From IMG/VR virus record IMGVR_UViG_3300028591_000077: a DNA stretch of 64,000 nt. One strand, 5' to 3'. Below the pieces are notes generated by a model. That model did not search any database. It worked only from the letters and a program-made list of their open reading frames with translations, and had not been told where the DNA came from. Positions 521 through 60,521 of this stretch are shown here, piece by piece. The position numbers were made by a program, and so were the translations under genes. Position 1 is the first letter of the stretch. Every line of letters starts with the position of its first letter. The stretch comes from a virus. Its lineage: Duplodnaviria; Heunggongvirae; Uroviricota; Caudoviricetes.

Positions 521-2476
521 ATGGGAAAACCAACAATCAAATCAATCTTAGCCGCTCGTCATTATTTAATTGTCGATAAGGCCCCAGAAGACAAGAACAT
601 GTCTGCCTATTACAATGCATTTTTGCTTGCTAATTTTGGCGTCATCGTTGATCGTCCTCACATGTTAACTCGTGAAGCAGTTAACGTTATCGCTGATACT
701 TTTAAGCTTAACGTTCCAGCAAGCTTCTACGATAACCCTCAACACATGGCTTATTTTTCTAAGTCAGAATTGCTTATCGAGCAACTCGTTTCCTATTTCT
801 TAGTTGAAACCGGAACTGGAATCTATAGCCGTCCTGAAATCTTTGAAAAGGATTTACCTGAGTATAAAGTCGGCAACGAAATCAAACTTCGTGAATTCAG
901 AATCGTCAATGCAGAGGAAGCAGTTGAAATCCTTAAAGGCATCTGCGATGCTTTCTGTGATTACACTCGTCCATTCTCTATCGATGAATTAGCTGAGTTC
1001 GAATATCTTTTCGTCAACGGTTATTACACCGGAAAAGAAATCAAATGCCGCGATAACATCTTTACTCTTTTGAAGCACGATGCAAGCTTTGCGCGCTTCT
1101 TGGATAAGAAAGATATGGTTAAGCTTTCTATCGCTTTCTTCGGGGAGCACAGAGAGTTTAGACCTGCAGATGAGGAAAAACTCGCTCTTATCAGAACTTG
1201 CTTACCTTACGTCCGTAATTGCCCAATGAGCAAAAAGCAAGCTAAATACTACAATAAGCTTCTTTCATACTGCAAAGTCAAAGGCGATGCTGCAGACAAT
1301 GCACGTTCTCCTTATAGACTTGCAAAAGTTGAACTTGACAAGGGTAATGTTTTAGGCGCCGCCGAAATCTTCGCCCGTAATGGTTCTTTACTTGAAAGAA
1401 ACATCAAGTTCTTGCTTTCAAGAGCTAACCCTGTCGAAGCCGTTAAGATCATCGAAATGCTTCCAGCAAAGAATCCAATGGTTCTTTATCAGATGATTTC
1501 AGCTATGTCTGAAGACAAGACAGATGGACGTGTATTCTCCTTTACTAAAAATAATAAGGTAAAACGTCATGTTGAAACCGATTATGAAGCTAAATGGAGA
1601 AAGTCCAAGCTCAACGACGCTACTAAGACTTTACTTCACGATATCGCTATCGAGAAGATCAAAGACTCTTATAGAGCAATGGGTTCTTTAGGTAAAGTTT
1701 ACGTCTCCGACGCATTTAACTTACTTGGAATCCCATCCAATACATCTGCTGGTGGAAAGGGCATCGATGTTCTTCCAACCGGTTCTCGTATCGTCTGCCC
1801 ATTCAACAAAATCCGCACTTTCGTTTACTGGGACGGAATCCGCGACGTTGACGCTTCCTTGGTTTTAGTCAAGAAAGACGGTAGACAAGATACCATTTAC
1901 TATGGTAACTACTCCAGCAAGCCATTTGGCACCAGCATTCTCTTCTCTGGAGACTGCCGTGATGTCAAGGGTTCTGAATACTACGATTTAGACTTAGACG
2001 AACTTCGTGCTAAGGGCTACGTCTCAGTTCTTTACACCCTTAATGGCTTCGGTGGAAAATTCACTCAAGGCGAAACCTTCTGTGGATACCAAAACAAAGA
2101 AGACCTTAAGACTCGTGCTTGGGATCCTAAAAACATCGCAATGCAGTTCAGAGTCGCTGGTGATTCTTCTCAAGTCCTTGCCTTCGGTATCGATTTAGAG
2201 ACAAATGCAGTGGTCGTCTTGAACCTTGTTCGTGATGCTTACAACAGAACTGTCAACTCCAGTGAAACAGATTCTGTCGCTAAGTACATGAAAGCAAGCT
2301 TCTTAGAGCTTAACATGGGCTTAGTTGCTTCATGCAGAGGCGAAGTCGTAACTGACCCAGCCGAAGCTGATATCGTCTTTGACGACAGCTATATGCCTCT
2401 TGAAGGTCAAAAGGTCGTAAGAACTTATGATCTTGAAAAGCTCGTTGCTATCGCAAATGGAGGGGAGGTAAAATAA
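521..2476 (+). CDS. Large protein with C-terminal TerD-like domain and helical N-terminal region (possibly TROVE/Ro-like)
   Basis: 651 aa, AGGAG RBS; C-terminal ...VYWDGIRDVDAS...FSGD...GSEYYDLDLDEL... resembles TerD fold; the N-terminal assignment is inference. Confidence 0.6.
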   Translation: MGKPTIKSILAARHYLIVDKAPEDKNMSAYYNAFLLANFGVIVDRPHMLTREAVNVIADTFKLNVPASFYDNPQHMAYFSKSELLIEQLVSYFLVETGTGIYSRPEIFEKDLPEYKVGNEIKLREFRIVNAEEAVEILKGICDAFCDYTRPFSIDELAEFEYLFVNGYYTGKEIKCRDNIFTLLKHDASFARFLDKKDMVKLSIAFFGEHREFRPADEEKLALIRTCLPYVRNCPMSKKQAKYYNKLLSYCKVKGDAADNARSPYRLAKVELDKGNVLGAAEIFARNGSLLERNIKFLLSRANPVEAVKIIEMLPAKNPMVLYQMISAMSEDKTDGRVFSFTKNNKVKRHVETDYEAKWRKSKLNDATKTLLHDIAIEKIKDSYRAMGSLGKVYVSDAFNLLGIPSNTSAGGKGIDVLPTGSRIVCPFNKIRTFVYWDGIRDVDASLVLVKKDGRQDTIYYGNYSSKPFGTSILFSGDCRDVKGSEYYDLDLDELRAKGYVSVLYTLNGFGGKFTQGETFCGYQNKEDLKTRAWDPKNIAMQFRVAGDSSQVLAFGIDLETNAVVVLNLVRDAYNRTVNSSETDSVAKYMKASFLELNMGLVASCRGEVVTDPAEADIVFDDSYMPLEGQKVVRTYDLEKLVAIANGGEVK

Positions 2477-4833: not shown

Positions 4834-4908
4834 GGAGTCATAGTACAGCGGTTAGTATACCTGACTGTCACTCAGGAGATGAGGGTTCAACTCCCTCTGG
4901 CTCCGCCA
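4834..4908 (+). tRNA. tRNA-Asp(GTC)
   Basis: Cloverleaf, GCCA end. Confidence 0.95.
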
Positions 4909-4911
4909 TTA

Positions 4912-5036
4912 GAACCAGTACTTATTTCTTTTTCGCCTTACATGCGAGAGGTCGTTGGTTCGAGTCCAACCGTCGCGGCACGGGTGACGTGTAGCGACGT
5001 AGCTCAGTTGGGAGAGCGCTTATTACTAGTCTGGTC
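4912..5036 (+). ncRNA. Bulged-stem element 4: circularly permuted tRNA-Val(TAC) body with closed acceptor hairpin
   Basis: 3' half (anticodon, T arm, CGTCGC) at 4934-4976 precedes 5' half (GCGACG, D arm) at 4994-5020; ACCAG/CTGGT stem. Confidence 0.85.
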
Positions 5037-6874: not shown

Positions 6875-7101
6875 GAGCCTATACTTATTTCTAGGACTGA
6901 AAATCCCCGTGTCCCTAGTTCGAATCTAGGCTCTCCCACCATAGGAGCCAATACTTATTTCGGATTCCGCGGTAGCTTAAAAGGTAAAGCCCCCGATCTA
7001 TAATCGGGAGATTGTCGGTTCAAGTCCGACCCATGGCATTGTGAGTTTGGCCACTTTGGGAGAGTAGCTCAGTTGGTAGAGCAGGAGTTAATAGTTAGGC
7101 C
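6875..7101 (+). ncRNA. Bulged-stem element 5: circularly permuted tRNA-Phe(GAA) with a nested element
   Basis: 3' half with CCA at 6894-6941, 5' half GGGAGAG+D arm at 7058-7085; outer GCCTA/TAGGC stem. Confidence 0.9.
6945..7052 (+). ncRNA. Nested bulged-stem element 5b enclosing a tRNA-Ile(TAT)-like cloverleaf (about 6966-7038)
   Basis: GA GCCAA T ACT TATTTC ... AGT TTGGC C; CCCGA-TC TAT AA-TCGGG anticodon arm, T arm, no CCA. Confidence 0.8.
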
Positions 7102-7243
7102 TTTTTTATTAAAAAATATCGTATTATATAAAGAAACGAAAAATATTCGCTAAATTATTTGGTACTTGTCTTCCTTAGCGGTACGACTTAATCCAGGGAT
7201 ATTCAGGAGATATTACCGATACAAAGATTAAGCAAGAAAGATT

Positions 7244-7323
7244 TAGACTAAACTTATTTCAAAGCCTTAGTCCCACAGGGACTATATAAAAATGAAGATC
7301 AAAATTGGCCGCACAGTTAGTCA
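7244..7323 (+). ncRNA. Bulged-stem element 6
   Basis: GACTA A ACT TATTTC ... AGT TAGTC. Confidence 0.7.
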
Positions 7324-7456
7324 AAGTATTGTTCTAAAATTGTTTATAATACGCCTGAGTGGTACGACTTGTTGGAACTTATAATTAAAACCTCGTTCGC
7401 GATGCAGCTAACAAAGAGCGTCAATTAATTATAAGGAAAGATAAGCAAAAAGGGCA

Positions 7457-7529
7457 GAAACTACACTTATTTCAAATTTTTCTAATCTACACTTACCATA
7501 GAAAAATTGGCCACGACAATAGTTAGTTC
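7457..7529 (+). ncRNA. Bulged-stem element 7
   Basis: GA AACTA C ACT TATTTC ... AGT TAGTT C. Confidence 0.7.
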
Positions 7530-7562
7530 GTATTTCATAAAAAATATCGTATAATATTTATA

Positions 7563-7645
7563 GAGCTTATGCTTATTTCAAATGGTTATAGAAGGTTCGA
7601 TTCCTTCACCGTCCGCCAATCCCGGACAGTGATATTAGCTAGGCC
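7563..7645 (+). ncRNA. Bulged-stem element 8: permuted T-arm/acceptor mini-helix with GCCA
   Basis: GAAGG-TTCGATT-CCTTC-ACCGTCC-G-CCA then GGACAGT; GCTTA/TAGGC stem. Confidence 0.75.
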
Positions 7646-7735
7646 AAAAAAATATTTGTAAAAAAATTAAAAAAATATTTACAAAACAAAAAAAGTATTG
7701 TATAATATTTATGTAAGCAAGTTAAGCAAGCTTGC

Positions 7736-8342
7736 TTCGAGTGTTCTTTGAGAAAGGATTTATGTTGAACCATGTGCAGAGGGATTACCTCCTTGCATGG
7801 AAGTTGGCTAAATAACGCGATAAATTGTGGGATACTGCAATGTAAGCTAAGACCTGTATTGAAAGATACGGGTATTCCTGTCAAAACGTGATCATTGACA
7901 GGCTAAGCTGATTGTGCAACATGTTATGGTACACAAAGCAATTCTGTCTAGGCTCGTCCGATAAGAGGCTCTGGGAGCAATCTCATCCCGCCTGTGGAAT
8001 TAAGCCTGAGAAACTTAGTTCCCGGCATCTCAACCTAAGGATAGTGACGTTTTGAAGCGGCGAAAGCCGTGTATAAGAGCTGACAGAAGTACGAGTAGCC
8101 GTATGACGTCGTTCGATCAAGTATAAAATTGAAGAATGTGATTAATTTCTTCCTTGCTGAAGTTCGGTGAAAGTTGGGGGACATCAATTCCCTCTATTGT
8201 TCGGTGCTAGTCACCAATTTGTGAAGACCAAGGTCGCGCCTTGGCTCTCAGCCACAAGTTAATATGTGCGAATATGTGGAATAATAAGTGTTGTAAGATG
8301 AATAAAAGTCTCGCTTAGATCATTTCTCAAAGAATACTCGAA
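7736..8342 (+). ncRNA. About 600-nt structured ncRNA (ROOL-like candidate)
   Basis: 20-bp terminal helix 7736-7755/8323-8342, promoter immediately upstream, many internal hairpins, no ORF. Confidence 0.65.
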
Positions 8343-10870: not shown

Positions 10871-11261
10871 GGGCTCGTACTGGTTTCGATTGGTATTTGA
10901 TGTTTATAACTACAGCAAGCTGATAACTTACTATCAAACAAAAACAAACGACAAAACTTTAAACCCTGCATTTATTGCCTCCAACAGATTCGTTGGTGCT
11001 CGCGCCTAATTTAAGGCCATAGTAGTCGAGAAGTAAAACTGAGTTAGATTGGTCGAGTTTAACTCTTTATAATCAGACCTCGGTCAAGAGAACATTAGCT
11101 TTATTAGATATCTTGATTTAAATCAATAAATAAGCTATCTGCGCGCCCCGTTGTGTTTGAAAAGGAGCGGACAGAGAAATATTCATGAACACATAAAGCT
11201 GTAATTGACGTTATAGGGGTTTGGTATCAAGACCGGGGTTCGACTCCCCGCGGGTCCACCA
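10871..11261 (+). ncRNA. ssrA: tmRNA
   Basis: GGGCTCG...GGTTTCGA 5' end, G3:U acceptor, T arm and CCA 3' end, tag frame ...KTNDKTLNPAFIASNRFVGARA*. Confidence 0.9.
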
Positions 11262-11690: not shown

Positions 11691-11787
11691 AGGGGATTAC
11701 GATAATTGGCAAGTCCGTCGGTCTTCAAAACCGATCAATCCGGCTCCAACCCGGAGAGCGCGGGTTCGATTCCTGCATCCCCTGCCA
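11691..11787 (+). tRNA. UGA-decoding tRNA (anticodon TCA), Trp-like acceptor with long variable arm
   Basis: AGGGGAT/ATCCCCT-G-CCA, TCGGT-CT TCA AA-ACCGA, TCCGG/CCGGA variable stem. Confidence 0.85.
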
Positions 11788-11872: not shown

Positions 11873-12541
11873 ATGAATAAAAGAGTAAAAACGTTTCTAT
11901 TTGCAATTTTTGCCGGTATTGCCATTGGCGTCGGCGGATTGCTTTTTATTTTATCAAAAACATATATTCCAGGTAATTGGGGTAATATTGTCGGTTCGTT
12001 GTTATTCCCGGTTGGATTAATTACAATTTGCTATTGTAAATTTAATTTATATACTGGAAAAATTGGCATTGCTCCAAATAAAGGTGTAAATACTAATGAT
12101 TTGAATGTATTTGAGTGGCTAGCTTGGATTCTATTAGGCAATATTGTCGGAGCGTTTGCCTTTGGATTGTTAGTTTATCCATTCACTTTGCTTGGAGGAA
12201 GCTTCGCCGATACCGTCCATGCTATTGGGTTAGCAAGGGAAACCATGGATCCGATTTCAATGGCTGGAACATCTGTCTTATGCGGAATCTTAGTTTATAT
12301 TGCGGTTTATTTCTTCAATAAGTCTGATGAGTACTTCGGCAAAGTCGTCGGTGTCTTGGTTCCTATTGCGTTCTTCGTATTAGCCGGATTTCAGCACTGC
12401 GTTGCCAATATGTTCTATATGGCGGCTTCTGGTAGTTGGACATTGGCGTCTACTCAAGCACTAGTAGGTTGTATCTTAGGTAATTCTTTCGGTGGATTGC
12501 TTGCCAATTTGCCGGTTGTATATTTTAAAGGAGCTAAATAA
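11873..12541 (+). CDS. Formate/nitrite transporter (FNT, FocA/NirC family)
   Basis: FPVGL...LYTG and AGFQHCVANMFY motifs, multiple TM helices. Confidence 0.9.
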   Translation: MNKRVKTFLFAIFAGIAIGVGGLLFILSKTYIPGNWGNIVGSLLFPVGLITICYCKFNLYTGKIGIAPNKGVNTNDLNVFEWLAWILLGNIVGAFAFGLLVYPFTLLGGSFADTVHAIGLARETMDPISMAGTSVLCGILVYIAVYFFNKSDEYFGKVVGVLVPIAFFVLAGFQHCVANMFYMAASGSWTLASTQALVGCILGNSFGGLLANLPVVYFKGAK

Positions 12542-20968: not shown

Positions 20969-21709
20969 ATGATTGAATTATATCCAAATTTCGAACATTT
21001 AAAACAATTCAACAATATCTGGATATATAGCGACCCACATTTCGCCGATCCTGAAATGTCTTTTTTAAGACAAAACTATATTGGCGATGAAGAGCAAGTC
21101 AAAAGAATCAATTCTAAAGTTGGCAGAAAAGACGTTATTATTATTCTCGGTGATGTTGGTAGCACTGAATTTGTCAAAAGAATTAGAGGCTATAAAATCT
21201 TGATTATGGGCAATCATGACCAAGGTAAATCCAATTTTGAAAGAAAAATAAATGAAGTTGAGCAATTTAGCTCTGCCGATATGTCTGAGGCCGATGCTAC
21301 TTTGATGAGAAAGAACGGCGTTGCTATGATTAGCGATCCATTACATGCTGCCTCTTACGTCGCCGCAAATGACGTCTTAGTTAAGAAATATACTAAGATA
21401 GTCAGAGAGGACAATCATTTGTTCGATGAGGTTTACGACGGTATTGTTGCGTTAAACTCTAAAATCATCTTATCCCACGAACCAGTCAATATTCCATTTA
21501 TGTTCAACATTCATGGCCATGACCATTCTAATTGGGAAGGTGCTAATGATGATTTGCACTTGAACGTTTGCGCAGAGCATATCAACTATACTCCAATTAA
21601 CTTAAATACCTTGCTAAAACAAGGCAAATTCAAAAACGTTCCAAGCATTCATCGTATCACCATCGATAAGGCGACTGCCAGAAAAGCAAAAAGAAACGCC
21701 GGTCAATAA
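20969..21709 (+). CDS. Calcineurin-like metallophosphoesterase
   Basis: SDPHF, LGDV, GNHD, LSHEP, IHGHDH motifs. Confidence 0.9.
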   Translation: MIELYPNFEHLKQFNNIWIYSDPHFADPEMSFLRQNYIGDEEQVKRINSKVGRKDVIIILGDVGSTEFVKRIRGYKILIMGNHDQGKSNFERKINEVEQFSSADMSEADATLMRKNGVAMISDPLHAASYVAANDVLVKKYTKIVREDNHLFDEVYDGIVALNSKIILSHEPVNIPFMFNIHGHDHSNWEGANDDLHLNVCAEHINYTPINLNTLLKQGKFKNVPSIHRITIDKATARKAKRNAGQ

Positions 21710-21722
21710 TCGGCGTTGATAT

Positions 21723-21799
21723 GGCGCCATGGAGAAGCGGTTTAACTCGCCAGACTCTCAATCTGGTATACACGGGTTCGAATCCCGTTGGCGTCGCCA
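21723..21799 (+). tRNA. tRNA-Glu(CTC)
   Basis: Cloverleaf, GCCA end. Confidence 0.9.
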
Positions 21800-21819
21800 T
21801 AATTTTGAAAGGAGAAAAT

Positions 21820-22482
21820 ATGAGTACATATTTTTGTAGCGATTTACATTTAGGGCATAGAAACATTCTTAAGTATGAACCGATTCGTATTGATGGAATC
21901 TGGGAAATGTTCTTCAATGATGACCCAAGATACCCAACTGCGGAATCATTCAGAGAATACGTTTTGCCATTAGTCGATGATTTCTCCGAAGAAGGAAAAG
22001 ATAAGTTTAGATACATTCTTTCGCTTCATGATAAAATGCTTATTAATCATTGGAATAGCGTCGTCTCTAATGAAGACACGGTTTGGTTCTTAGGCGATTT
22101 CTGTCTTGGCGGAAACGAAAATATCAAAAAGTATTTAGACCAGCTAAATGGACATAAAATGCTTATCCGTGGAAACCATGACAAGAAGACGGATTCGGCA
22201 TACAGAGAAGCTGGTTTTGAGTACGTTTCAAGATACCCAGTCATCTTAAAGAAATTCTTTATTTTAAGCCATGCGCCATTCGAGTACATGCAGTCGACTG
22301 CTCCATATTTCTACATCTATGGACACGTTCACAGTTCTCCTGCATACCAGACTTGGACTCCAATCTCTTGCTGCGCTTGTGTAGAACGACATGGATTTAA
22401 GCCTATTCAGATTCATGGCTTTGATGAAGCCGATGATTCTATCGAAAAGTATCATCCAAGTTTAGAAAACAAAAGAGGCTAA
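21820..22482 (+). CDS. Calcineurin-like metallophosphoesterase
   Basis: SDLHLGH, LGDF, GNHD, LSHAP, YGHVH motifs; start revised to the RBS-led ATG. Confidence 0.9.
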   Translation: MSTYFCSDLHLGHRNILKYEPIRIDGIWEMFFNDDPRYPTAESFREYVLPLVDDFSEEGKDKFRYILSLHDKMLINHWNSVVSNEDTVWFLGDFCLGGNENIKKYLDQLNGHKMLIRGNHDKKTDSAYREAGFEYVSRYPVILKKFFILSHAPFEYMQSTAPYFYIYGHVHSSPAYQTWTPISCCACVERHGFKPIQIHGFDEADDSIEKYHPSLENKRG

Positions 22483-22520
22483 TGCCTCTTTTTATATTAA
22501 TTTATTGTATAATAAAAAGT

Positions 22521-23936
22521 ATGGAAAAGTATAATACTATTATTGTCGGCGCAGGCCCTTGCGGCTATTTTTGCGCTTATGAATTAATCAAGAAAAATCC
22601 TGATTGGAAAGTGCTTTTGATTGATAAAGGTCATTCTATCATGCAAAGGCATTGTCCTGTTTTAGAACATAAAATTGACCATTGTCCAAGGAATCCAAAC
22701 GGACACAACGAATGCTTTCCAGCATGTTCAATTACCAATGGTTTTGGTGGGGCTGGAGCTTTCTCTGACGGTAAGTTTATTATTTCGACAGAGTATGGCG
22801 GTTGGCTCGGCGATTATATCGGAGAAGATAAACTTATTGAGCTTATTGACTACGAAGATAATATAAATCTTTCTTATGGTGCGACTGCCGAAACCACTGA
22901 TCCATATACCGAAAAAGTCAAGCAAATCGAACAAAGAGCCATGGGCGCAGGACTTAAATTACTACATAGCAAGGTAAGACATTTAGGCACTGAAGAGAAT
23001 ATCAAAATCTTAAAGTTAATTTATGAAGATTTAGAAAAATCTATCGAAATGCGCTTCAAAACTACAGTAAAAGACCTGATAATTGAAGCAGACTGCGTAA
23101 AAGGCGTTATTCTTGAAGATGGCGAAAAACTCTATGCCGACAGCGTTGTGTTAGGAGTAGGACGTCAGGGTTCTAAATGGTTGAACGAGCTTTTTGGAAA
23201 ATATAATATCTCGATGAAACAAAACCGCGTAGACTTGGGCGTGCGTGTTGAATGCCCTAACGTCGTTATGGATGAAATCAATGAGAATCTCTATGAAGGA
23301 AAGTTTATTTTCAGGGCTTCTAATGACTTATTGGTGAGAACATTCTGCTCTAATCCTGGTGGACAGGTGGTTATGGAGAACTACGAAGGCGTCGTAAACG
23401 TCAATGGACATGCTTACAAAGATCCAAGACTACATAGCAATAATACAAATTTTGCATTATTGGTAACCCATCACTTCAGAGAACCGTTCAATAAGCCAGA
23501 CGAATATGCAAAACGAATCTCAGAATTAGCGAATCAGCTTGCTTGTGGTTCGGTATTAGTCCAATCTTATGGCGATTTAAAGAAGGGCAGACGAAGCACT
23601 GAAAAACGAATTAAAGAATGTTTTACGACCCCAACGCTTAAAGAAGCGGTTCCTGGCGATTTAAGCCTTTGCTTGCCATATAGAACATTACAATGCATTA
23701 TCGAAATGATAGAAGCATTGGACCACATTACTCCAGGCATTGCTACGGACCATACGCTATTATATGGCGTTGAAGCAAAATATTATTCAGCGCATCCAGA
23801 AATCACCGAAAAGCTAGAAGTTATTGGATTAAATAACCTTTATGTCGGTGGTGACGGCGCTGGGATTACCAGAGGTTTGGCACAAGCTGGAGCTTCTGGA
23901 ATCCATATCGCAAGGAACATATTAGATAAGGAGTAG
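22521..23936 (+). CDS. NAD(P)/FAD-dependent oxidoreductase (COG2509-like)
   Basis: GAGPCG Rossmann motif, GGAGAFSDGK, GDGAGITRGLAQA; ATG lies 7 nt after TATAAT (probably leaderless). Confidence 0.85.
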   Translation: MEKYNTIIVGAGPCGYFCAYELIKKNPDWKVLLIDKGHSIMQRHCPVLEHKIDHCPRNPNGHNECFPACSITNGFGGAGAFSDGKFIISTEYGGWLGDYIGEDKLIELIDYEDNINLSYGATAETTDPYTEKVKQIEQRAMGAGLKLLHSKVRHLGTEENIKILKLIYEDLEKSIEMRFKTTVKDLIIEADCVKGVILEDGEKLYADSVVLGVGRQGSKWLNELFGKYNISMKQNRVDLGVRVECPNVVMDEINENLYEGKFIFRASNDLLVRTFCSNPGGQVVMENYEGVVNVNGHAYKDPRLHSNNTNFALLVTHHFREPFNKPDEYAKRISELANQLACGSVLVQSYGDLKKGRRSTEKRIKECFTTPTLKEAVPGDLSLCLPYRTLQCIIEMIEALDHITPGIATDHTLLYGVEAKYYSAHPEITEKLEVIGLNNLYVGGDGAGITRGLAQAGASGIHIARNILDKE

Positions 23937-24265: not shown

Positions 24266-25456
24266 ATGAAATACACTGGAACAAAATCAATCGGCATTAA
24301 GTTGCCTATTCTCAAAGAGGGAGATGACCTTGCTACTGAGGTGGTAAATTCTGTCATCAAAGCTTCAAAGAAGGAGCATTTTAAACTAAGGGACAGAGAC
24401 GTCATTGCAATTACAGAGTCAATCGTCGCTAGAACTTCTGGCGATTATATTACGGTAACAGATATAGCAGAGGATATTGAAAATAAAATCGGTAAAAATA
24501 AGTCTATTGGCTTGGTATTTCCAATTTTATCAAGAAACAGATTTTCGAATATCTTAAAGGGAATCGCACAAGGCGTAAAAAAGATTTATCTCGTTCTATC
24601 ATATCCTGCCGATGAAGTCGGCAACCATCTTATATCCGACGAAGCTTTATATAATAGCGGCGTTTCTCCAGTCAGCACCTTAACCGAAAAAGAATTCAAG
24701 TCAAAGTTCGGCGAACCAAAACATGAATTTACCGGCGTTAATTATGTAGAATACTATAAGGAAATTGCTGCGAGCAGAGATTGCAAATTAGAAGTTATAT
24801 TTTCTAATGACCCGACTGTTGTATTAAAATACGTAAAAACAGTTATCGCCGCGGACATTCACACCAGATACTTAACCAAAGCCAGATTAATGCGTGCCGG
24901 CGCGAATAAAGTCATTCTATTAAGTGATATTTGTTCAACTCCGATTGAAGGTAAACATTATAATTCAAAATATGGTTTACTTGGAACAAATAAGGTTTCT
25001 GAGTCTTCTTTAAAGCTTTTCCCAGAGCATGGTGAAGAATTAGTAAAGAAAGTTCAGGCAGAGATTCTAAGAAGAACCAAAAAGCATGTTGAAGTCATGG
25101 TCTATGGTGACGGTGCCTTCAAAGATCCACAAGGAAAGATTTGGGAACTTGCTGACCCAGTGGTCTCGCCGTTCCATACGGAAGGATTAAACGGAACACC
25201 TAATGAAATCAAATTAAAATACTTCGCCGACAACAAATTCAAAGAATTAAAAGGCAAAGAACTTACAAAGGCAATTAAAGAAGAAATTATCAAGAAAGAC
25301 AAAAACTTAAAAGGCACAATGGCTTCAGAAGGAACTACTCCAAGACAGCTAACAGACCTTCTTGGCTCGCTTGCCGACCTTACGTCAGGCTCTGGTGATA
25401 AAGGCACACCAGTAGTATTAATTCAAGGTTACTTTGATAATTATTCTAGTAAATAA
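24266..25456 (+). CDS. Coenzyme F420-0:gamma-glutamyl ligase (CofE)-family protein
   Basis: IKLPILKEGDDL, ITESIVAR, DGAFKD...ELADP, SLADLTSGSGDKGTPVV motifs. Confidence 0.8.
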   Translation: MKYTGTKSIGIKLPILKEGDDLATEVVNSVIKASKKEHFKLRDRDVIAITESIVARTSGDYITVTDIAEDIENKIGKNKSIGLVFPILSRNRFSNILKGIAQGVKKIYLVLSYPADEVGNHLISDEALYNSGVSPVSTLTEKEFKSKFGEPKHEFTGVNYVEYYKEIAASRDCKLEVIFSNDPTVVLKYVKTVIAADIHTRYLTKARLMRAGANKVILLSDICSTPIEGKHYNSKYGLLGTNKVSESSLKLFPEHGEELVKKVQAEILRRTKKHVEVMVYGDGAFKDPQGKIWELADPVVSPFHTEGLNGTPNEIKLKYFADNKFKELKGKELTKAIKEEIIKKDKNLKGTMASEGTTPRQLTDLLGSLADLTSGSGDKGTPVVLIQGYFDNYSSK

Positions 25457-54334: not shown

Positions 54335-55180
54335 ATGAGTCAAGCCGATAAATATTTTAAAGAAGAAGTTAATAAACTATTAACAGAAGGTTTTAATGAT
54401 AAGGATTTTGAAGTCAGACCACATTGGCCAGATGGAACTCCTGCTCATACAATTAAAACATTTTGTGCTATCCGTAGATATGATTTAAGCAAAGAATTTC
54501 CAGCATTAACACTTAGAACTCAAGCATTCAAAGGAGTTGTTAGAGAATTACTTTGGATGTGGCAAAAGAAGTCTAATATTGTTGATGAATTAGGTAAATC
54601 AGCAGGAATTTGGAGAGCTTGGGAAAGACCTGATGGAACCATCGGTAAAACATATGGTTATCAATTAGGTAAAGTTTCTCATTACTCTTATGGTGATTTC
54701 GATCAAGTTGATAATCTTATCTATTTATTGAAGAATAAACCAATGGACCGCAGAATGATTGTTACAATGTGGTGCCCAGGTGATTTATGGGATATGGCGC
54801 TTCCGCCATGCGTCTATGAATCTATTTGGGATGTTACTGATGGAAAGCTTAACTGCACATTGATTCAACGTTCTGGTGACTTACTTGCTGCTGCTTGTTC
54901 AGGAGGTTGGGATACCATGGAATATGCTGTCCTTCAACATATGCTTGCGCAAGTCTGTGGTTACAAAGTCGGTGAATTAGTGCATATCGTTAATAATTTA
55001 CATATTTATGACAGACATATTGAAGCCGTCAAAAAAGTTTGTGAAAACCCAGAATATGACGCTCCAACCTTATGGATTAATCCTGAAGTTAAAGACTTCT
55101 ATGCATTTACAGAAGATGACTTCAGATTAGATAACTACCAATCAACTAAACTTACTGAAAAATTTGAGGTCGCTGAATAA
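54335..55180 (+). CDS. thyA: Thymidylate synthase
   Basis: ELLW, GKTYGYQ, RRMIV, MALPPC, QRSGD, NLHIYDRH. Confidence 0.97.
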   Translation: MSQADKYFKEEVNKLLTEGFNDKDFEVRPHWPDGTPAHTIKTFCAIRRYDLSKEFPALTLRTQAFKGVVRELLWMWQKKSNIVDELGKSAGIWRAWERPDGTIGKTYGYQLGKVSHYSYGDFDQVDNLIYLLKNKPMDRRMIVTMWCPGDLWDMALPPCVYESIWDVTDGKLNCTLIQRSGDLLAAACSGGWDTMEYAVLQHMLAQVCGYKVGELVHIVNNLHIYDRHIEAVKKVCENPEYDAPTLWINPEVKDFYAFTEDDFRLDNYQSTKLTEKFEVAE

Positions 55181-55650
55181 TGGCGAGCACTGCTCACGAC
55201 AGGATTTATACTCCTGAAGAAACAGCGAAAACTATTATCGGTAAGTTCAATCTTTCTGGAAAAGTATTAGACCCTTTCAGAGGTAAAGGAGCCTTCTATG
55301 ATAATTATCCAGAAGGGATTGAAAAAGATTGGTGTGAAATTGATGAAGGAAGAGATTTCTTCGATTATAAAGAAAAGGTCGATTGGATAGTTTCAAATCC
55401 TCCGTATTCAATCTTTGGTGAAGTGTTAAAGCACTCAATGGAATTGGCGGATAATATCGTCTATTTGATTCCATTAAACAAATTAACAAGCTCTTTTACA
55501 AGAGTTAAGGAACTCCACGATTTTGGTGGAATTCCATATATCTATCTCCTTAGTCCAAAAGCCTGCAATTTCCCATTTGGATTCTGCACATGCGCTGTGT
55601 GGATTAAAAAAGGATATAGAGGTGATACGAAAATGGAGGTCGCTGAATAA
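55180..55650 (+). CDS. Small SAM-dependent N6-adenine/N4-cytosine DNA methyltransferase-like protein
   Basis: LDPFRGKGAF and VSNPPY motifs. Confidence 0.75.
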   Translation: MASTAHDRIYTPEETAKTIIGKFNLSGKVLDPFRGKGAFYDNYPEGIEKDWCEIDEGRDFFDYKEKVDWIVSNPPYSIFGEVLKHSMELADNIVYLIPLNKLTSSFTRVKELHDFGGIPYIYLLSPKACNFPFGFCTCAVWIKKGYRGDTKMEVAE

Positions 55651-56078
55651 TGAAAGAAAATGATTTTGAATTAAAAATGGAACATAATGATATTATGGGT
55701 CAAAAAGCAGTTAACACAATTTATTATGGACAGCCAGAAGAGCATGTTGTTTGTCCTAAATGTGGAGAAGCTGCAAATTTAGATCCAGAAGTTTTAACTT
55801 CTATGCCACCTCAAAGACGTATTAGATGTCCACATTGTGGCTATGTCGGTTCTGATTTTTGTCATAATCTTCAAATATTTTATGATACTCCAAATAAGCC
55901 ATGGACATTTGATGGTACTATTAAAAGTGAAAACTTAAAGAGCTACACTAAATGTATTATTTGTGGTGATTTAGTTGCATTTAACATGGCAGCTCAGGAG
56001 CCAAGCGCACATGTCTGTGAAAATTGTAAAAGAGCTATTTTAAAACTTCGTAAAATGTTGGAGGAAGACAATGATTAA
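55650..56078 (+). CDS. Zinc-ribbon protein
   Basis: Four CxxC pairs. Confidence 0.7.
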   Translation: MKENDFELKMEHNDIMGQKAVNTIYYGQPEEHVVCPKCGEAANLDPEVLTSMPPQRRIRCPHCGYVGSDFCHNLQIFYDTPNKPWTFDGTIKSENLKSYTKCIICGDLVAFNMAAQEPSAHVCENCKRAILKLRKMLEEDND

Positions 56079-56610
56079 GGCAATCGTTTGCTGTGCTAAA
56101 GACTATGGAATTGGAAAAGCAAATGGCTTGCTTTTTGCTATTCCGGCAGATATGAAGCATTTTAGAGAAACTACAAAAGGAAATGTCTGCATTTTTGGCT
56201 ATAATACCTATATGAGCTTACAAAAGCGCCCATTGCCAAAAAGACTTAATTTAGTTCTTTGGGATAAAGCCAGTGGTGAATTTAATGATCTTGAAGGTGC
56301 TATTACATATAATAATTTAAACCAATTAATCCATTTCATTAATACTATTTCAAAAGTTATGGATGTATATATTTGTGGTGGAGCGATGCTTTATAAATAC
56401 TTTATTGAGCATCAATTAGTCGATGAAGTTGATATTACTTTTGTAGATGCTATTGACCCAGAAACAACTGCCTTCTTTCCAAAATTAGAGAAGTATGGAT
56501 ATCAAGTTAAAGATAAAGAATCTTATCATAAAGATGAAACTACAAATGGTTATTCTATTAGCAAACAAATTTGGGTTAAAGCTTCAAAAGAAAGTGAGTT
56601 TAGTAGATAA
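56071..56610 (+). CDS. folA: Dihydrofolate reductase
   Basis: GIG..NGL...IPADMKHF, GYNTY, RPLPKRLN, ICGGA.LY. Confidence 0.92.
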   Translation: MIKAIVCCAKDYGIGKANGLLFAIPADMKHFRETTKGNVCIFGYNTYMSLQKRPLPKRLNLVLWDKASGEFNDLEGAITYNNLNQLIHFINTISKVMDVYICGGAMLYKYFIEHQLVDEVDITFVDAIDPETTAFFPKLEKYGYQVKDKESYHKDETTNGYSISKQIWVKASKESEFSR

Positions 56611-57362
56611 TGGAAAATTTTACAGATAAGCTAGTTGTAGACTATGAGCACTCTGATTTATATAAGCAATTAGTAGCTTTGAATGAAGCTTTTAAAAATA
56701 CTACTAAACAAATAAATGGTGAAATTTTTATTTTACACAGTTTAGAAGCTCAATATTTTGATTTATTATATAGAAATCGTGTAGAGTTGTTATCAGAAGA
56801 ATGTTTACCAATTACTAAAGAAATAAATGATTTAGTTTATTATGTTTTAACACATGTTATTGCCGGTGGTGAATCTGGATTAGAAGTTGGGCAAACAACT
56901 TATAATGCTTCAGTAACAGAATATGGAATGCATAAAAATTATGGCTGGTCCTATGGTGGCAAAGGTGATTTAGATCATTTATATCATCATACAGGCACAG
57001 GATTTTCTGGCACAGACTTTGAATTAACAGATGCTTTTGAATTTACAACTTATGATAAAATATTAGCAAAACCTAGCCAATTTATTATTTCTGCTGGGTC
57101 TAAAGTTGATGCAAAAGACTTTATGACTAGAGAAACTATGGATACAAAATTAGCTAAGAATATTAATGGAAGTTTTGGACATTTTGGAGATTTTTTATTT
57201 ATTCATATAATTTCAGATAACAGTTATTATATTACTAAAAATATTGCAGGTGCAGAAGTTATTCCTGTTTTTGGTATATCGTCAAAAACTGCAGAATATC
57301 ACCAAGTAAAGCTTTCAGTTGATACAAATGGTTTTTTAGCTATAGATAAATATTATAATTAA
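56610..57362 (+). CDS. Hypothetical protein
   Basis: TAATG coupling, 250 aa. Confidence 0.75.
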   Translation: MENFTDKLVVDYEHSDLYKQLVALNEAFKNTTKQINGEIFILHSLEAQYFDLLYRNRVELLSEECLPITKEINDLVYYVLTHVIAGGESGLEVGQTTYNASVTEYGMHKNYGWSYGGKGDLDHLYHHTGTGFSGTDFELTDAFEFTTYDKILAKPSQFIISAGSKVDAKDFMTRETMDTKLAKNINGSFGHFGDFLFIHIISDNSYYITKNIAGAEVIPVFGISSKTAEYHQVKLSVDTNGFLAIDKYYN

Positions 57363-57363
57363 G

Positions 57364-57858
57364 ATGCAATTTTATATAGGATACTTTCAAGAATTAAAAT
57401 GGTTTGATAAAACACACGTAGTTATTGATACTTCGTTATGGTCTCCCAAATGGTTAGATCCATCAAATGGTAAGCGTCAATATGTCAATGAAAACGGTGT
57501 TGTAATTGGAATCAAAGAAGAAAGCTTTTTAATGACAGAAGATGAGATTCCAGAAGAGATGTGCTCTGGAAAACCTTGTCCTTATATTGATAAATGGCCA
57601 CATTGTCAGTTCTTAGATGCTTATTGGAAGCATTTACAGAAAATAGACTTTGAAGGTTATTTACTTCCTGAGTTAAACAGGATTGCAGAAGACGTTAGAA
57701 AAATAACACATTATGAAGGTGAACCAAAGATTGTCTTGATGGTTCATGAAAAACCTGAGAATCAATGCTCTGAAAGGTTAGGCTTAATTAGACTATTCAA
57801 AGAACATGGAATTGAATTAAAAGAATGGACAAAAGAATTAATAGGTGAGGTATTTTAG
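57364..57858 (+). CDS. Hypothetical protein (weak DUF488-like LxxHEK..CSER)
   Basis: 164 aa, operon context. Confidence 0.6.
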   Translation: MQFYIGYFQELKWFDKTHVVIDTSLWSPKWLDPSNGKRQYVNENGVVIGIKEESFLMTEDEIPEEMCSGKPCPYIDKWPHCQFLDAYWKHLQKIDFEGYLLPELNRIAEDVRKITHYEGEPKIVLMVHEKPENQCSERLGLIRLFKEHGIELKEWTKELIGEVF

Positions 57859-58122
57859 ATGTTTATATTTATGATTATTATCGGAGCCATTATGTCCTTC
57901 TTTGGAGGAGTAATATTTTTCTCATCTTATACAGCAATTAAGAACGAAGCTAATTGGAATGACTTTATTGAACATGTCCAAAAAGAAAATAGTCCAATTG
58001 CTAACTATCCAGAAGACGTTGTGTATAATTTAGTTTGTAAAATCAATAGATTTTCTTGTATAATATTAATAATAGGGCTTTTATGTTTAGGCAGCGGTGT
58101 TGCTTTGACGGCCATAAGATAG
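57859..58122 (+). CDS. Two-TM membrane protein
   Basis: Two hydrophobic segments. Confidence 0.7.
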   Translation: MFIFMIIIGAIMSFFGGVIFFSSYTAIKNEANWNDFIEHVQKENSPIANYPEDVVYNLVCKINRFSCIILIIGLLCLGSGVALTAIR

Positions 58123-58133
58123 GAGATAGCATA

Positions 58134-58277
58134 ATGGGAACTCGTGAAGAATATGTTCACAGAAGACTAATGGAATTAGCATTTATTGCTGAGACCAGAG
58201 AACTTGATGAAGTTGAAAAAGAAGAAGAAAGACGATTATCAGAAGAGGTTGAATCATTTAAAAAAGAGGAAAAGTAA
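58134..58277 (+). CDS. Small hypothetical protein
   Basis: AGGAG RBS. Confidence 0.55.
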   Translation: MGTREEYVHRRLMELAFIAETRELDEVEKEEERRLSEEVESFKKEEK

Positions 58278-59899
58278 TGAAGAATATTTTAGAAATAACC
58301 AAAGGTCTTGGTATTCCCGAACAATATGTTATACCTATTGGTTGGGATAAAGCTAAGATCGATTTGAAATACAAAGAAGTTTTAAAAAATAAAAAAGATG
58401 GTAAATTAGTTTTAGTTACCGCCATTACTCCAACGAAAGCTGGAGAAGGCAAAACCACAACCACAATTGGTTTACACGATGGTTTACGAAAAATCGGTAT
58501 AAATTCATTAGCTTGTTTACGTGAACCTTCTTTAGGTCCTGTTTGGGGAATTAAAGGTGGTGCTGTTGGTGCCTTAAAATCAACTATTGTCCCAAGTGAT
58601 GATATCAATCTTCATTTTACTGGTGACTATCATGCTTTAACTGCAACTATTAACCTTATTTCTGCAGTTATTGATAATCATATTTATCAAGGTAATGAAC
58701 TTGATTTAGACCCAGAAAATATCGTTTGGAAACGCGCTCTTGACGTTAATGACCGCGCACTTAGAAGTGTCACTGTTGCCCAAGATGACAAGAAAGCTAC
58801 TCCAAGACATGATGAATTCACGATTACAGTCGCATCAGAGTTAATGACTATTTATGTTCTTTCTGAGACTGAAGAAGAATTCATGGAAAGAGTTAACAAC
58901 GTTCTTATTGCCTATAATAGAAAAGGTGAACCTGTCTATCTCAAAGACCTTCATATCTCTAAAGCATTATTAAAGATGATGAAGACTGCAATGAGCCCAA
59001 ATGTTGTTCAAACCTTAGAAGAGAATCCTGTTCTTGTTCACGGCGGACCATTCGCTAATATCTCTATCGGCGTTAACTCTGTTAATGCTACAAAAATGGC
59101 TCTTAAAATGGCTGATGTTGTAGTCACTGAAGCAGGATTCGGTTCTGACCTCGGTGCTGAAAAATTCCTTGACATCAAATGTCAAAAAGCAGGAATTCAT
59201 CCAAATGCAATCGTTTTAGTTGCTACTGCCAGAGCTCTTAAACTTCATGGTGGTGTTAAATTTGAAGACCTTGAAAAAGAGAATATCGAGGCCATTAAAG
59301 CTGGTATCTGTAACTTAAAAAAGCATGCGGAAAATGCCGTTAAATATGGTGTTCCAGTTGTAATCTCCATCAATAGATTCCCAAGTGATACTGATGCTGA
59401 AGTTGACACTATTATGAACTGGTGTGATGAAAATGGTTTCTTAGCCGCTGTTAATACTGCTGCATTAGAAGGTGGTATCGGAGGCGAAGCTCTTGCCAAT
59501 TTAGTTATGTTCGTTTTAGCTGGACAAGAAGCTGAAATTGAATTTTATAAAGATAACTTTAAGCCACTTTATAAATGGGATGAGCCTATTTTAGATAAAA
59601 TATCTAAGATTTGCACAGAAATTTATGGTGCTGGCAATGTTGAGTATACGGATGAAGCCAAAGAACAAATTGCTAAATATGAAGCAATGGGTTATGGCAA
59701 ATTACCTGTTTGTGTATCTAAGACCCCTAATTCATTAACAGATGATGCAAAGATTTTAGGCGCTCCAACCGGATTCACCATTCACATCAGAGAGGTTAGA
59801 TTATACTCTGGTGCAGGCTTAATTGTTCCTCTCTCAGGAAGCTTACTATTAATGCCAGGTCTTCCAAAAGAGCCACGTTGCTTAGATAAATTTAATTAG
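58277..59899 (+). CDS. fhs: Formate--tetrahydrofolate ligase
   Basis: TPTKAGEGKTTT, GIKGGA, INLHFTGD, HGGPFANI, VTEAGFG.DLGAEKF, MPGLPK. Confidence 0.97.
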   Translation: MKNILEITKGLGIPEQYVIPIGWDKAKIDLKYKEVLKNKKDGKLVLVTAITPTKAGEGKTTTTIGLHDGLRKIGINSLACLREPSLGPVWGIKGGAVGALKSTIVPSDDINLHFTGDYHALTATINLISAVIDNHIYQGNELDLDPENIVWKRALDVNDRALRSVTVAQDDKKATPRHDEFTITVASELMTIYVLSETEEEFMERVNNVLIAYNRKGEPVYLKDLHISKALLKMMKTAMSPNVVQTLEENPVLVHGGPFANISIGVNSVNATKMALKMADVVVTEAGFGSDLGAEKFLDIKCQKAGIHPNAIVLVATARALKLHGGVKFEDLEKENIEAIKAGICNLKKHAENAVKYGVPVVISINRFPSDTDAEVDTIMNWCDENGFLAAVNTAALEGGIGGEALANLVMFVLAGQEAEIEFYKDNFKPLYKWDEPILDKISKICTEIYGAGNVEYTDEAKEQIAKYEAMGYGKLPVCVSKTPNSLTDDAKILGAPTGFTIHIREVRLYSGAGLIVPLSGSLLLMPGLPKEPRCLDKFN

Positions 59900-59908
59900 G
59901 AGACACGC

Positions 59909-60361
59909 ATGATTATTAGTGCATTTCAAGGAATTGGAAAAACAACCTTAGCAAAATCAAGATTAGATATCATTGATTTTGAGTCATCAAGTTTTGATAA
60001 ATCAAATCCAAATTGGTATGTAGACTATTGTAAAGCTGCTTTGGATTTAGACAAACAAGGCTATATTGTGTTCGTATCATCTCATAAAGTAGTCAGAGAT
60101 TACTTAATTAATTCTGGTGTAAAATACTTTATGATTATGTATAGCAAAGACTTAAAGGATTTTGCAGTTGATAAAGTCAAAGTTAGATATGAACAAGATC
60201 CAAGCGATAAAAATAAAAGAGCTATGGACAAAGCAGCAGGCATGTTTGATGCTATTTATGATGAAGTAATTACTGATACTGCCACTGGTTTACAGATTTA
60301 TTTAATCGATGATAAAAATTATAATTTAGGAGCTATTGTTGATAAACTCAATAGAGAATAA
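59909..60361 (+). CDS. P-loop kinase-like protein
   Basis: IISAFQGIGKTT Walker A, DFESS. Confidence 0.7.
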   Translation: MIISAFQGIGKTTLAKSRLDIIDFESSSFDKSNPNWYVDYCKAALDLDKQGYIVFVSSHKVVRDYLINSGVKYFMIMYSKDLKDFAVDKVKVRYEQDPSDKNKRAMDKAAGMFDAIYDEVITDTATGLQIYLIDDKNYNLGAIVDKLNRE

Positions 60362-60521
60362 TTATGGGAAAACAATATACTAAATGCGATTTCTGCAGTT
60401 TCCACACAGCATCTGGCTGTAGTGCTAGACCAGATTCTCATTATTGCAAAGAGGCTCTTGATGAGTTCTATGCATGGCTAAGAGAACAAAGAGGCAATAA
60501 AAATAAAGGACGAAGATAACT

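What the first reader, a model, noticed from the sequence alone, without database searches (positions are those of the whole stretch)
6875..7101. Circularly permuted tRNA-Phe with a second element nested in its spacer
Order on the DNA: motif, GGA-CT GAA AA-TCCCC, T arm, CTCTCCC-A-CCA; then an inner element holding a tRNA-Ile(TAT)-like cloverleaf; then GGGAGAG, D arm, GG, motif. Joining G28 to G29 restores a perfect GGGGA/TCCCC anticodon stem and a 7-bp acceptor with CCA. Inner (GCCAA/TTGGC) and outer (GCCTA/TAGGC) stems pair specifically, which confirms the nesting. Permuted tRNA genes are established in red/green algae and an archaeon (BHB-spliced); I know of none in phage.
Basis: partly seen in the sequence, partly recalled or inferred. 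Interest (0 to 1): 0.85.

Follow-up and report, generated by a model that had tools for sequence, protein, structure and literature searches.

The report
Permuted tRNA-Phe on a phage handle
A giant phage from the rumen encodes a complete tRNA-Phe whose two halves lie in swapped order and are clamped by a conserved RNA stem, which related phages also use to display other tRNA pieces. It looks like a new family of tRNA-mimicking small RNAs rather than an archaeal-style spliced tRNA gene.

Summary
Nt 29-76 of a perfect tRNA-Phe(GAA), with encoded CCA, lie at 6894-6941. Nt 1-28 lie at 7058-7085. A second element with a tRNA-Ile(UAU)-like cloverleaf (6945-7052) is nested between CCA and G1. ARAGORN calls the joined 76 nt tRNA-Phe.

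Each element is closed by a "handle": 5' GA-N5-U-RCUUAUUUC and 3' AGY-N5'-C. The handle occurs 13 times in the window, always on the + strand. Among 129 distinct copies in related giant phages, 98 have a perfect 8-bp partner downstream and 0 have one upstream; 27 pentamer variants covary.

Cargos are modular: permuted whole tRNAs, whole tRNA-likes, acceptor/T minihelices and bare anticodon stem-loops. This layout matches the tRNA-like domain of bacterial YrlA Y RNAs, but the Ro60-binding motif and a TROVE gene are absent. No BHB motif or splicing endonuclease was found. Junction positions and linker lengths vary. Most relatives lack CCA. Every permuted unit duplicates a standard isoacceptor.

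Best reading (about 0.5): a handle-tagged tRNA mimic. A ligated, functional tRNA-Phe remains possible (about 0.2), because CCA is conserved in three Phe units and an earlier scan note reports an Rnl2-like ligase in this genome.

The parts
6875..6891 (+). Outer handle, 5' strand (GAGCCTATACTTATTTC). G1, bulged A2, pentamer GCCTA, bulged U8, ACU, then the invariant UAUUUC.
6892..6893 (+). 5' linker (TA) between the handle and tRNA nt 29
   Evidence: in relatives this linker is 1-6 nt
6894..6941 (+). tRNA-Phe nt 29-76. Contains GGA of the anticodon stem, loop CUGAAAA, UCCCC, the variable loop, the T arm, the acceptor 3' strand, A73 and CCA.
6942..7057 (+). Spacer between CCA and G1. It holds the nested inner unit.
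   Evidence: A nested unit sits at the same place in L044:10895.
6945..6961 (+). Inner handle, 5' strand (GAGCCAATACTTATTTC)
6965..7039 (+). Inner, non-permuted tRNA-Ile(UAU)-like cloverleaf. It has C33, acceptor mismatches and no CCA.
   Evidence: (53.6 bits)
7044..7052 (+). Inner handle, 3' strand (AGTTTGGCC)
7058..7085 (+). tRNA-Phe nt 1-28. Contains the acceptor 5' strand GGGAGAG, U8 A9, the D arm, A26, and G27 G28.
7086..7092 (+). 3' linker (AGTTAAT)
7093..7101 (+). Outer handle, 3' strand (AGTTAGGCC), followed by T6 at 7102-7107

Best explanation
The locus encodes two nested members of a phage-specific family of small structured RNAs. In each member a constant handle clamps the 5' and 3' ends. 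The handle is a 9-bp helix with a bulged A and a bulged U, followed by the invariant 5'-strand sequence CUUAUUUC. It displays a tRNA-derived module.

In the outer unit the module is a complete tRNA-Phe body, and the handle branches out of the anticodon stem between nt 28 and 29. The layout is that of the tRNA-like domain of YrlA Y RNAs, plus an intact anticodon hairpin.

Shown:
- the fold, by covariation;
- the family and its modular cargos;
- its restriction to tRNA arrays of related giant phages, always on the tRNA strand.

Inferred:
- The transcript folds as an L-shaped tRNA-Phe with an extra arm.
- RNase P and 3' processing at the encoded ACCA open the acceptor end and release the inner unit.
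- The product stays in two pieces held together by the handle and is not a decoding tRNA.
- It acts as a mimic, decoy or adaptor for proteins that recognise tRNA-Phe. Candidates are host anticodon nucleases, tRNA-damage sensors, modification enzymes or synthetases.
- The handle serves as a binding site for an unidentified factor, as an end-protecting cap, or as both.
For: - Handle family: 13 copies in the window against 0.95 expected. All have 8/8 partners. 98 of 129 have perfect partners downstream and 0 of 129 upstream, with 27 pentamer types. 6 of 9 pairs show double changes, in 62 cells.
- Modular cargos. 20 of 71 short cargos are canonical anticodon stem-loops against 3.1 in shuffles. Their loops, CUUUUAA and UUUGGGA, are identical to tRNA-Lys and tRNA-Pro loops.
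- The neighbouring Pro unit aligns to YrlA model positions 23-86 in the order closing stem, V, T arm, acceptor hairpin, D arm.
- 13 of 20 parsed permuted relatives have an acceptor stem sealed by a 3-15-nt loop without CCA.
- Four orthologous units share the handle, anticodon stem, T arm and D arm but carry anticodons GUU, UUU, GCU and GUU.
- Permuted units always duplicate a standard isoacceptor: window Phe, Pro and Val; relative G001 Asn, Pro and Glu among only 13 tRNAs; L307 Phe. The copies are only about 65-80% identical to the standard genes.
- There is no BHB, and linkers vary from 1-6 nt on the 5' side and 3-9 nt on the 3' side.
- Splicing endonuclease: 0 of 5 records.
- Units sit on the tRNA strand in every locus examined.
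Against: - No binding protein for the handle was found. TROVE (Ro60) is absent from 5 records, 4 of which carry the handle, and from 50 window ORFs. The conserved neighbouring ORF is a TerD-family protein with no sign of RNA binding.
- NCCA is conserved in all three Phe units and all five Pro units despite diverged stems. The anticodon loops of the Phe units are fully canonical. Both features suggest use of the acceptor end, and possibly real tRNA function.
- RNA ligase genes occur in 4 of 5 related records. An earlier scan note reports an Rnl2-like ligase and a kinase in this genome.
- Handle pairs are almost all Watson-Crick, with few G-U pairs. That is unusual for an RNA helix.
- No expression data resolve the mature RNA.
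Confidence: 0.5

Rival explanations
1. It is a true circularly permuted tRNA-Phe gene. After the acceptor end is opened, both handle strands and linkers are removed. The resulting nick in the anticodon stem (28|29) is sealed by a phage RNA ligase, for example an Rnl2-type nick sealer. This gives a functional 76-nt tRNA-Phe by a pathway that does not use BHB.
For: - The joined sequence is a flawless tRNA-Phe.
- NCCA, loop CUGAAAA and all stems are kept through compensatory changes in three diverged phages.
- A nick inside a duplex is the preferred Rnl2 substrate (established knowledge).
- PF09414 RNA-ligase hits occur in 4 of 5 related records and RtcB in 1 of 5.
- Earlier scan note e1-1679272 reports Thg1-like, kinase and Rnl2-like genes in this genome.
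- Relatives carry standard tRNAs interrupted inside the anticodon by tRNA-like inserts. These would also need religation.
Against: - No BHB and no splicing endonuclease were found.
- There is no conserved cleavage context. Linker lengths and junction positions (27/28 to 31/32) vary, so a ruler mechanism from either the handle or the tRNA body fails.
- The Phe units in L252 and L307 encode G29 twice, so x+y = 6.
- Most family members could never yield a tRNA.
- The unit is always redundant with a standard tRNA-Phe.
- RNA-library contigs over the locus are colinear with the DNA, and no back-joint was seen. This is a weak test because only contigs were available.
Confidence: 0.2
2. The handles are only processing or stability stems, for example double-strand RNase sites or end caps for RNAs cut out of the polycistronic tRNA transcript. 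Under this view the permuted tRNA pieces are decaying remnants of rearranged tRNA genes with no function of their own.
For: - Units abut tRNA genes by 1-12 nt.
- Some cargos look degenerate. The Val unit has A1.G72 and no CCA, and the inner Ile-like element has C33 and acceptor mismatches.
Against: - The Phe, Pro and other cargos keep every tRNA helix through compensatory substitutions across phages. These phages differ by 20-35% from each other and from their standard copies.
- Anticodon loops are canonical far more often than in shuffles.
- The invariant single-stranded CUUAUUUC is not explained by a simple stem.
Confidence: 0.12
3. It is a DNA-level element. The flanking inverted repeats would be recombination sites, integron attC-like (GCCTA..AC / GTTAGGC resembles R''/R'), and excision as a circle would restore an intact tRNA gene.
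For: - AGTTAGGC contains GTTRRRY.
- The helix is nearly all Watson-Crick and has extrahelical bases, as in attC.
Against: - The GTT core is not conserved. Position 9 is G in 46 of 104 units, so the 3' motif reads AGC there.
- The most conserved block, CTTATTTC, has no conserved partner.
- The cargo lies inside the hairpin, not between sites.
- All units share the strand of the tRNA genes.
- DNA runs show only the colinear form.
Confidence: 0.03

Closest known systems
YrlA-type bacterial and phage Y RNAs (Rfam RF02553; Chen et al. 2014, PMC4201824)
   Same: The 5' and 3' ends pair into a stem. That stem carries a tRNA-like domain in the permuted order V, T arm, acceptor stem, D arm. The acceptor is often sealed by a loop. 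M. smegmatis YrlA is cut by RNase P and receives CCA. The window's Pro unit aligns to the YrlA model in this order.
   Different: - The Ro60-binding motif GNCGAAN0-1G is missing, and there is no TROVE gene in the related phages searched.
- The score is 26 bits against a gathering score of 69.
- The stem is a different, strictly conserved handle.
- The Phe unit also keeps a complete, canonical anticodon hairpin and an encoded CCA.
- The same handle also carries bare anticodon stem-loops and minihelices.
- There are 7-13 copies per phage, inside tRNA arrays.
Circularly permuted tRNA genes of Cyanidioschyzon merolae, prasinophyte algae and Thermofilum pendens
   Same: The 3' half lies upstream of the 5' half in one unit. 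The leader and trailer pair. The intervening sequence lies between CCA or the discriminator and G1. The evolutionary logic is that of an opened intron.
   Different: - Those use a BHB motif, a splicing endonuclease and a ligase, and pass through a circular intermediate. Here there is no BHB and no such endonuclease.
- The junction lies inside the anticodon stem.
- The unit is redundant with a standard gene.
- The flanks are a family-wide handle shared with cargos that are not tRNAs.
Two-piece tmRNA from permuted ssrA genes (alpha-proteobacteria, cyanobacteria)
   Same: It is a bacterial precedent for a permuted tRNA-like gene whose product works as two base-paired pieces without ligation.
   Different: There is no mRNA-like tag module here. 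Rfam tmRNA_permuted scores only 18 bits against a gathering score of 47. The window has its own standard tmRNA at 10871-11261.
Split tRNA genes of Nanoarchaeum equitans
   Same: Halves are brought together by complementary flanking sequences next to the anticodon region.
   Different: Those are separate genes joined in trans at a BHB by the archaeal endonuclease and a ligase.

Membership tests
BHB-dependent permuted tRNA genes | The 3' half lies upstream of the 5' half, and the joined halves give a canonical cloverleaf | tested here: met
BHB-dependent permuted tRNA genes | Leader and trailer form a bulge-helix-bulge (3-4-3) motif at the processing sites | tested here: not met
   The ends meet at a three-way junction directly opposite each other. 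The linkers are A/U-rich, 1-6 nt and 3-9 nt long, and have no conserved local structure.
BHB-dependent permuted tRNA genes | A splicing endonuclease (EndA/Sen family) is available | tested here: not met
   PF01974 found in 0 of 5 related phage records, while controls matched in 4 archaea. The window's own genome is not held, and bacterial hosts are not known to have this enzyme.
BHB-dependent permuted tRNA genes | A mature, covalently continuous tRNA carrying the junction exists | tested here: inconclusive
   Only assembled contigs of metatranscriptomes were available. They are colinear with the DNA over 6954-7642, and no back-joint was seen.
YrlA Y RNA (RF02553) | A tRNA-like domain (V, T arm, acceptor stem-loop, D arm) closed by a stem formed from the RNA's two ends | tested here: met
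YrlA Y RNA (RF02553) | Ro60-binding motif GNCGAAN0-1G in the 5' strand | tested here: not met
   The handle 5' strand is GAGCCUAUACUUAUUUC in all copies. The motif is as defined in PMC4201824.
YrlA Y RNA (RF02553) | Encoded next to, or in a genome with, an rsr (TROVE) gene | tested here: not met
   PF05731 found in 0 of 5 records, 4 of them handle carriers. None was found among 50 window ORFs.
YrlA Y RNA (RF02553) | Reaches the Rfam gathering score | tested here: not met
   26.0 and 20.1 bits against 69
Integron attC site | Conserved R' core GTTRRRY, with crossover at G|TT | tested here: not met
   The 3' motif is AGY; 46 of 104 units have AGC.
Permuted (two-piece) tmRNA | A tRNA-like domain plus a tag-encoding mRNA-like domain | tested here: not met
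   There is no tag frame. RF04321 scores 18.4 bits against 47.

The most novel reading that the evidence does not exclude
A bacteriophage makes a functional, aminoacylated tRNA-Phe from a circularly permuted gene by a pathway unknown in any domain of life. RNase P and 3' processing would open the acceptor end. A conserved handle would hold the halves together. The handle would then be removed and the nick in the anticodon stem sealed by a phage Rnl2-type ligase. Alternatively the two-piece, handle-bearing molecule would itself be charged and used. The same handle would mark a whole set of regulated or decoy tRNA derivatives.
Probability: 0.2. Interest if true: 0.95.

Novelty: new variant of a known kind. 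Interest (0 to 1): 0.8.

Why it matters
Permuted tRNA genes are known only from a few algae and one archaeon, and they depend on BHB splicing. Y RNAs are the only known bacterial tRNA mimics with this topology, and they depend on Ro60. This locus shows a third arrangement.

It is a strictly conserved, covarying RNA handle that matches no Rfam family. Rumen and gut giant phages attach it to complete permuted tRNAs, to bare anticodon stem-loops (mostly Lys- and Pro-like) and to acceptor/T minihelices. Each phage has 7-13 copies inside its tRNA array, and in the four cases examined a ROOL or GOLLD RNA lay within about 1 kb of handle units.

If the RNAs are decoys or adaptors, they would be a new layer in the phage-host conflict over tRNA cleavage. 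If the Phe and Pro units are ligated or charged, they would be the first permuted tRNAs in the bacterial world and would point to a new maturation route. Either outcome can be tested directly with small-RNA sequencing and pull-downs.

Tried and rejected
- BHB motif: pairings around both ends were drawn by hand and folded. None was found.
- Rfam at E-value threshold: nothing matches the handle. Only weak YrlA hits to the cargo appeared.
- GenBank phages by blastn: no relatives beyond ordinary tRNA similarity.
- Neighbouring 651-aa ORF (521-2476) as a handle-binding candidate. The single-sequence fold was useless (pLDDT 35). With an alignment the pLDDT was 81.8, and the fold is a TerD-family protein. 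There is no RNA-binding evidence, so it was dropped.
- Handle CUUAUUUC pairing with ROOL or GOLLD: only AATAAG 6-mers were found, which is not significant.
- Complement GAAATAAG: absent from the window.
- ARAGORN on doubled or trimmed cargos: too permissive to place junctions. It was replaced by an explicit parser.
All but one (L120, a contig of a Bacteroidales MAG) are chance hits without a partner.
- Phe-specific pattern in IMG/VR: only chance hits. The metagenome scan gave two real orthologues.
- Sigma-70 promoter and terminator scan: no clear promoter at the unit starts.
- Metatranscriptome contigs: no junction information.
- attC, CRISPR-repeat or Racr, retron and type III antitoxin readings were considered and rejected on anatomy.

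Full report
CONTEXT. The window is part of a giant phage from the sheep or cattle gut.
- It has 42 tRNA genes by ARAGORN plus a tmRNA, all on the + strand between 3030 and 21800.
- It has a ROOL RNA (7746-8331) and a c-di-GMP-I riboswitch.
- Its proteins include collagen-like tail fibres, topoisomerase II, a holin, PhoH and folate enzymes.
- DNA and RNA runs that hold it are sheep and bovine gut metagenomes.
- No whole genome is held for it.

OBSERVATION.
- tRNA-Phe nt 29-76, with encoded ACCA, lie at 6894-6941. Nt 1-28 lie at 7058-7085.
- Joined, the 76 nt are called tRNA-Phe(gaa) by ARAGORN. The anticodon stem GGGGA/UCCCC is perfect, the loop is CUGAAAA, and the acceptor stem has 7 bp.
- Between CCA and G1 sits a second element (6945-7052). 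Its core is called tRNA-Ile(tat) by ARAGORN and Rfam (53.6 bits). It has C33, two acceptor mismatches and no CCA.
- Each element is bracketed by GAGCC[T/A]ATACTTATTTC ... AGTT[A/T]GGCC. Pairing is specific for inner versus outer over 8 bp plus a terminal G-C.

THE FLANKS ARE A FAMILY-WIDE HANDLE.
- The 5' motif occurs 13 times in the window, always on the + strand, against 0.95 expected. Each copy has a fully complementary 3' partner within 450 nt.
- An exact-motif scan of IMG/VR returned 73 loci, and 49 of them hold partnered units.
- Among 129 distinct strict 5' motifs, 98 have a perfect 8-bp Watson-Crick partner within 260 nt downstream. None of the 129 has one upstream. 27 pentamer variants are used.
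- On an alignment of 58 short units, 6 of 9 handle pairs change on both sides, in 62 cells. G1-C(last), C10-G and U11-A never vary.
- The consensus is G-(A)-N5-(U)-RCU-UAUUUC ... AGY-N5'-C, with CUUAUUUC invariant.
- A covariance model finds no further copies in the window.
Only one, a contig binned with a Bacteroidales MAG, holds real units, so the family looks phage-specific.
- Units share the strand of the neighbouring tRNAs in every locus examined.
- Rfam has no family for the handle.

CARGOS ARE tRNA PARTS. Cargo length is bimodal, near 30 nt and near 87 nt. The classes are:
- Bare anticodon stem-loops. 20 of 71 short cargos have a 5-bp stem and a 7-nt loop with U33 and R37, against 3.1 in shuffles (maximum 10). 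The commonest loops are CUUUUAA and UUUGGGA, which are the Lys and Pro loops of the phage's own tRNAs.
- A D-like hairpin plus an anticodon stem-loop (window 8768 and 19121).
- Acceptor/T-arm minihelices (window 7563).
- Permuted whole tRNAs: window Val 4912, Phe 6875 and Pro 8633, and about 20 in relatives.
- Non-permuted tRNA-likes with odd anticodon loops (window 6945, L018, L028, L032).

A second nested case has an inner unit at the same place, between ACCA and G1 (L044:10895).

WHAT THE PERMUTED UNITS LOOK LIKE ACROSS PHAGES.
- The junction lies at 27/28, 28/29 or 29/30 in the anticodon stem, or at 31/32.
- The 5' linker after UUUC is 1-6 nt and the 3' linker before AGY is 3-9 nt. Both are A/U-rich and have no consensus.
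- 7 of 20 parsed units encode ACCA: all the Pro units, the Phe unit and one Ala-like unit. The other 13 have a 6-7-bp acceptor stem sealed by a 3-15-nt loop without CCA.
- Units with the junction at 31/32 often lack U33.
- Four orthologous units share the handle, anticodon stem, variable loop, T arm and D arm but carry anticodons GUU, UUU, GCU and GUU.

Two more Phe units were found in metagenome contigs: L252:123-245 and L307:5989-6109, the latter on a 273-kb contig.
- They keep the CUGAAAA loop and NCCA.
- Their acceptor, T and anticodon stems have changed compensatorily. Pair 28:42 (G-C to C-G) joins the two halves.
- They have 6-nt spacers instead of a nested unit, and they encode G29 on both halves.

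REDUNDANCY. Every permuted unit duplicates a standard isoacceptor of the same phage.
- Window: Phe 5733, Pro 8554 and 9012, Val 3030.
- Complete 233-kb relative G001: Asn, Pro and Glu, although it has only 13 tRNAs.
- L307: Phe.
- The copies are old, at about 65-80% identity to the standard genes.

COMPARISON WITH KNOWN SYSTEMS.
- Bacterial YrlA Y RNAs have this topology: a stem formed by the two ends that carries V, T arm, acceptor stem-loop and D arm. M. smegmatis YrlA is cut by RNase P and receives CCA (PMC4201824).
- The Pro unit aligns to YrlA model positions 23-86 in that order, but at 26 bits against a gathering score of 69.
- The Ro60 motif GNCGAAN0-1G is absent.
- TROVE was found in 0 of 5 related records, 4 of them carriers, and in none of 50 window ORFs.
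- Against the algal and archaeal permuted genes: there is no BHB, and no splicing endonuclease in 0 of 5 records.
- RNA ligase family hits occur in 4 of 5 records and RtcB in 1 of 5.
- An earlier scan note (e1-1679272) reports Thg1-like, kinase and Rnl2-like genes about 25 kb upstream in this genome. I could not check this on this genome.

EXPRESSION. Only contigs of metatranscriptomes were available.
- ROOL is very abundant, at depth about 600 against about 13 nearby.
- One RNA-library contig covers 6954-7642 colinear with the DNA.
- No contig shows a back-joint.
- This neither shows nor excludes a ligated product.

MECHANISM. The best-supported reading (about 0.5) is that the locus encodes two nested handle-tagged tRNA mimics.
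- The outer RNA folds as tRNA-Phe with the handle as an extra arm on the anticodon stem.
- Because ACCA is conserved in Phe- and Pro-type units, and the spacer can hold an independent unit, I infer that RNase P and 3' processing open the acceptor end and free the inner unit.
- That would leave a two-piece molecule held together by the handle.
- Its role would be to engage tRNA-Phe-binding proteins, acting as a decoy for anticodon nucleases or sensors, or as an adaptor. The handle would serve as a protein-binding or protective module.
- The steps after folding are inference.

The main rival (about 0.2) is real maturation to a continuous tRNA-Phe by nick sealing. It is favoured by the flawless cloverleaf, the conserved CCA and the presence of ligases. 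It is disfavoured by the lack of any defined cleavage context, by the redundancy with standard genes, and by the many family members that cannot become tRNAs. Simple processing stems with decayed cargos (about 0.12) and DNA-level sites (about 0.03) fit poorly.

VERDICT. I class this as a new variant of the Y-RNA-like tRNA-mimic kind, with a new handle, new cargos and a complete permuted tRNA. I found no report of it in searches of the held paper library.

Noticed in passing
L010:5134-5329, L010:3273-3424, L010:4498-4631, L010:5548-5707, L024:4143-4241: Standard tRNAs of a related 233-kb phage carry 80-125-nt inserts inside the anticodon (Lys UUU between nt 35 and 36, Leu UAA between nt 34 and 35). 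Each insert begins with a 7-nt strand complementary to the 7 nt before its terminal ACCA and holds a T arm with loop TTCAAGT. They look like tRNA-like 'introns' that RNase P and 3' processing could excise, leaving a nick that a ligase could seal. Their D stem and T loop resemble those of the window's inner Ile-like element.
   Followed up: partly
window 7746-8331; L054:6758-7279, L010:9181-9694, L036:5016-5531: A large ornate RNA lies within about 1 kb of handle units in 4 of 4 cases: ROOL in the window and GOLLD in three relatives. ROOL is about 45 times deeper than its flanks in a rumen metatranscriptome (run X3).
   Followed up: partly
window 4904-4979: ARAGORN's 'tRNA-Val(tac)' call here is an artefact. 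It uses the handle 5' strand of unit 4912 as a false 5' half. Rfam does not call it.
   Followed up: yes
window 521-2476: A 651-aa protein with more than 500 homologues at 50% identity or more. It has an N-terminal helical domain and a C-terminal TerD-like beta sandwich. It keeps the same position between handle units and the tRNA array in relative G001, and similar sequence occurs in several other motif-bearing loci.
   Followed up: partly
window 11691-11787 and 10871-11261: A tRNA with anticodon UCA, called SeC by ARAGORN (Rfam 45 bits). It may be a UGA reader. A phage tmRNA with tag DKTLNPAFIASNRFVGARA lies nearby.
   Followed up: no
window 7112-7130 and 7541-7558: The repeat AAAAAATATCGTAT(T/A)ATAT has a -10-like core. 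One copy follows the Phe unit and the other lies just upstream of unit 7563. A strong sigma-70-like promoter (TTTACA-17-TATAAT, 7678-7706) precedes ROOL.
   Followed up: partly
window 11873-12541, 24266-25456, 54335-61319: Auxiliary metabolic genes: a formate/nitrite transporter, an F420-0:gamma-glutamyl ligase-like protein, thymidylate synthase, DHFR, FolD and formate-THF ligase.
   Followed up: no
window 20969-22482 and 22482-23936: Two calcineurin-like phosphoesterases and a GidA/FAD-dependent oxidoreductase-like protein lie at the end of the tRNA region. A role in RNA end healing or tRNA modification is possible but untested.
   Followed up: no
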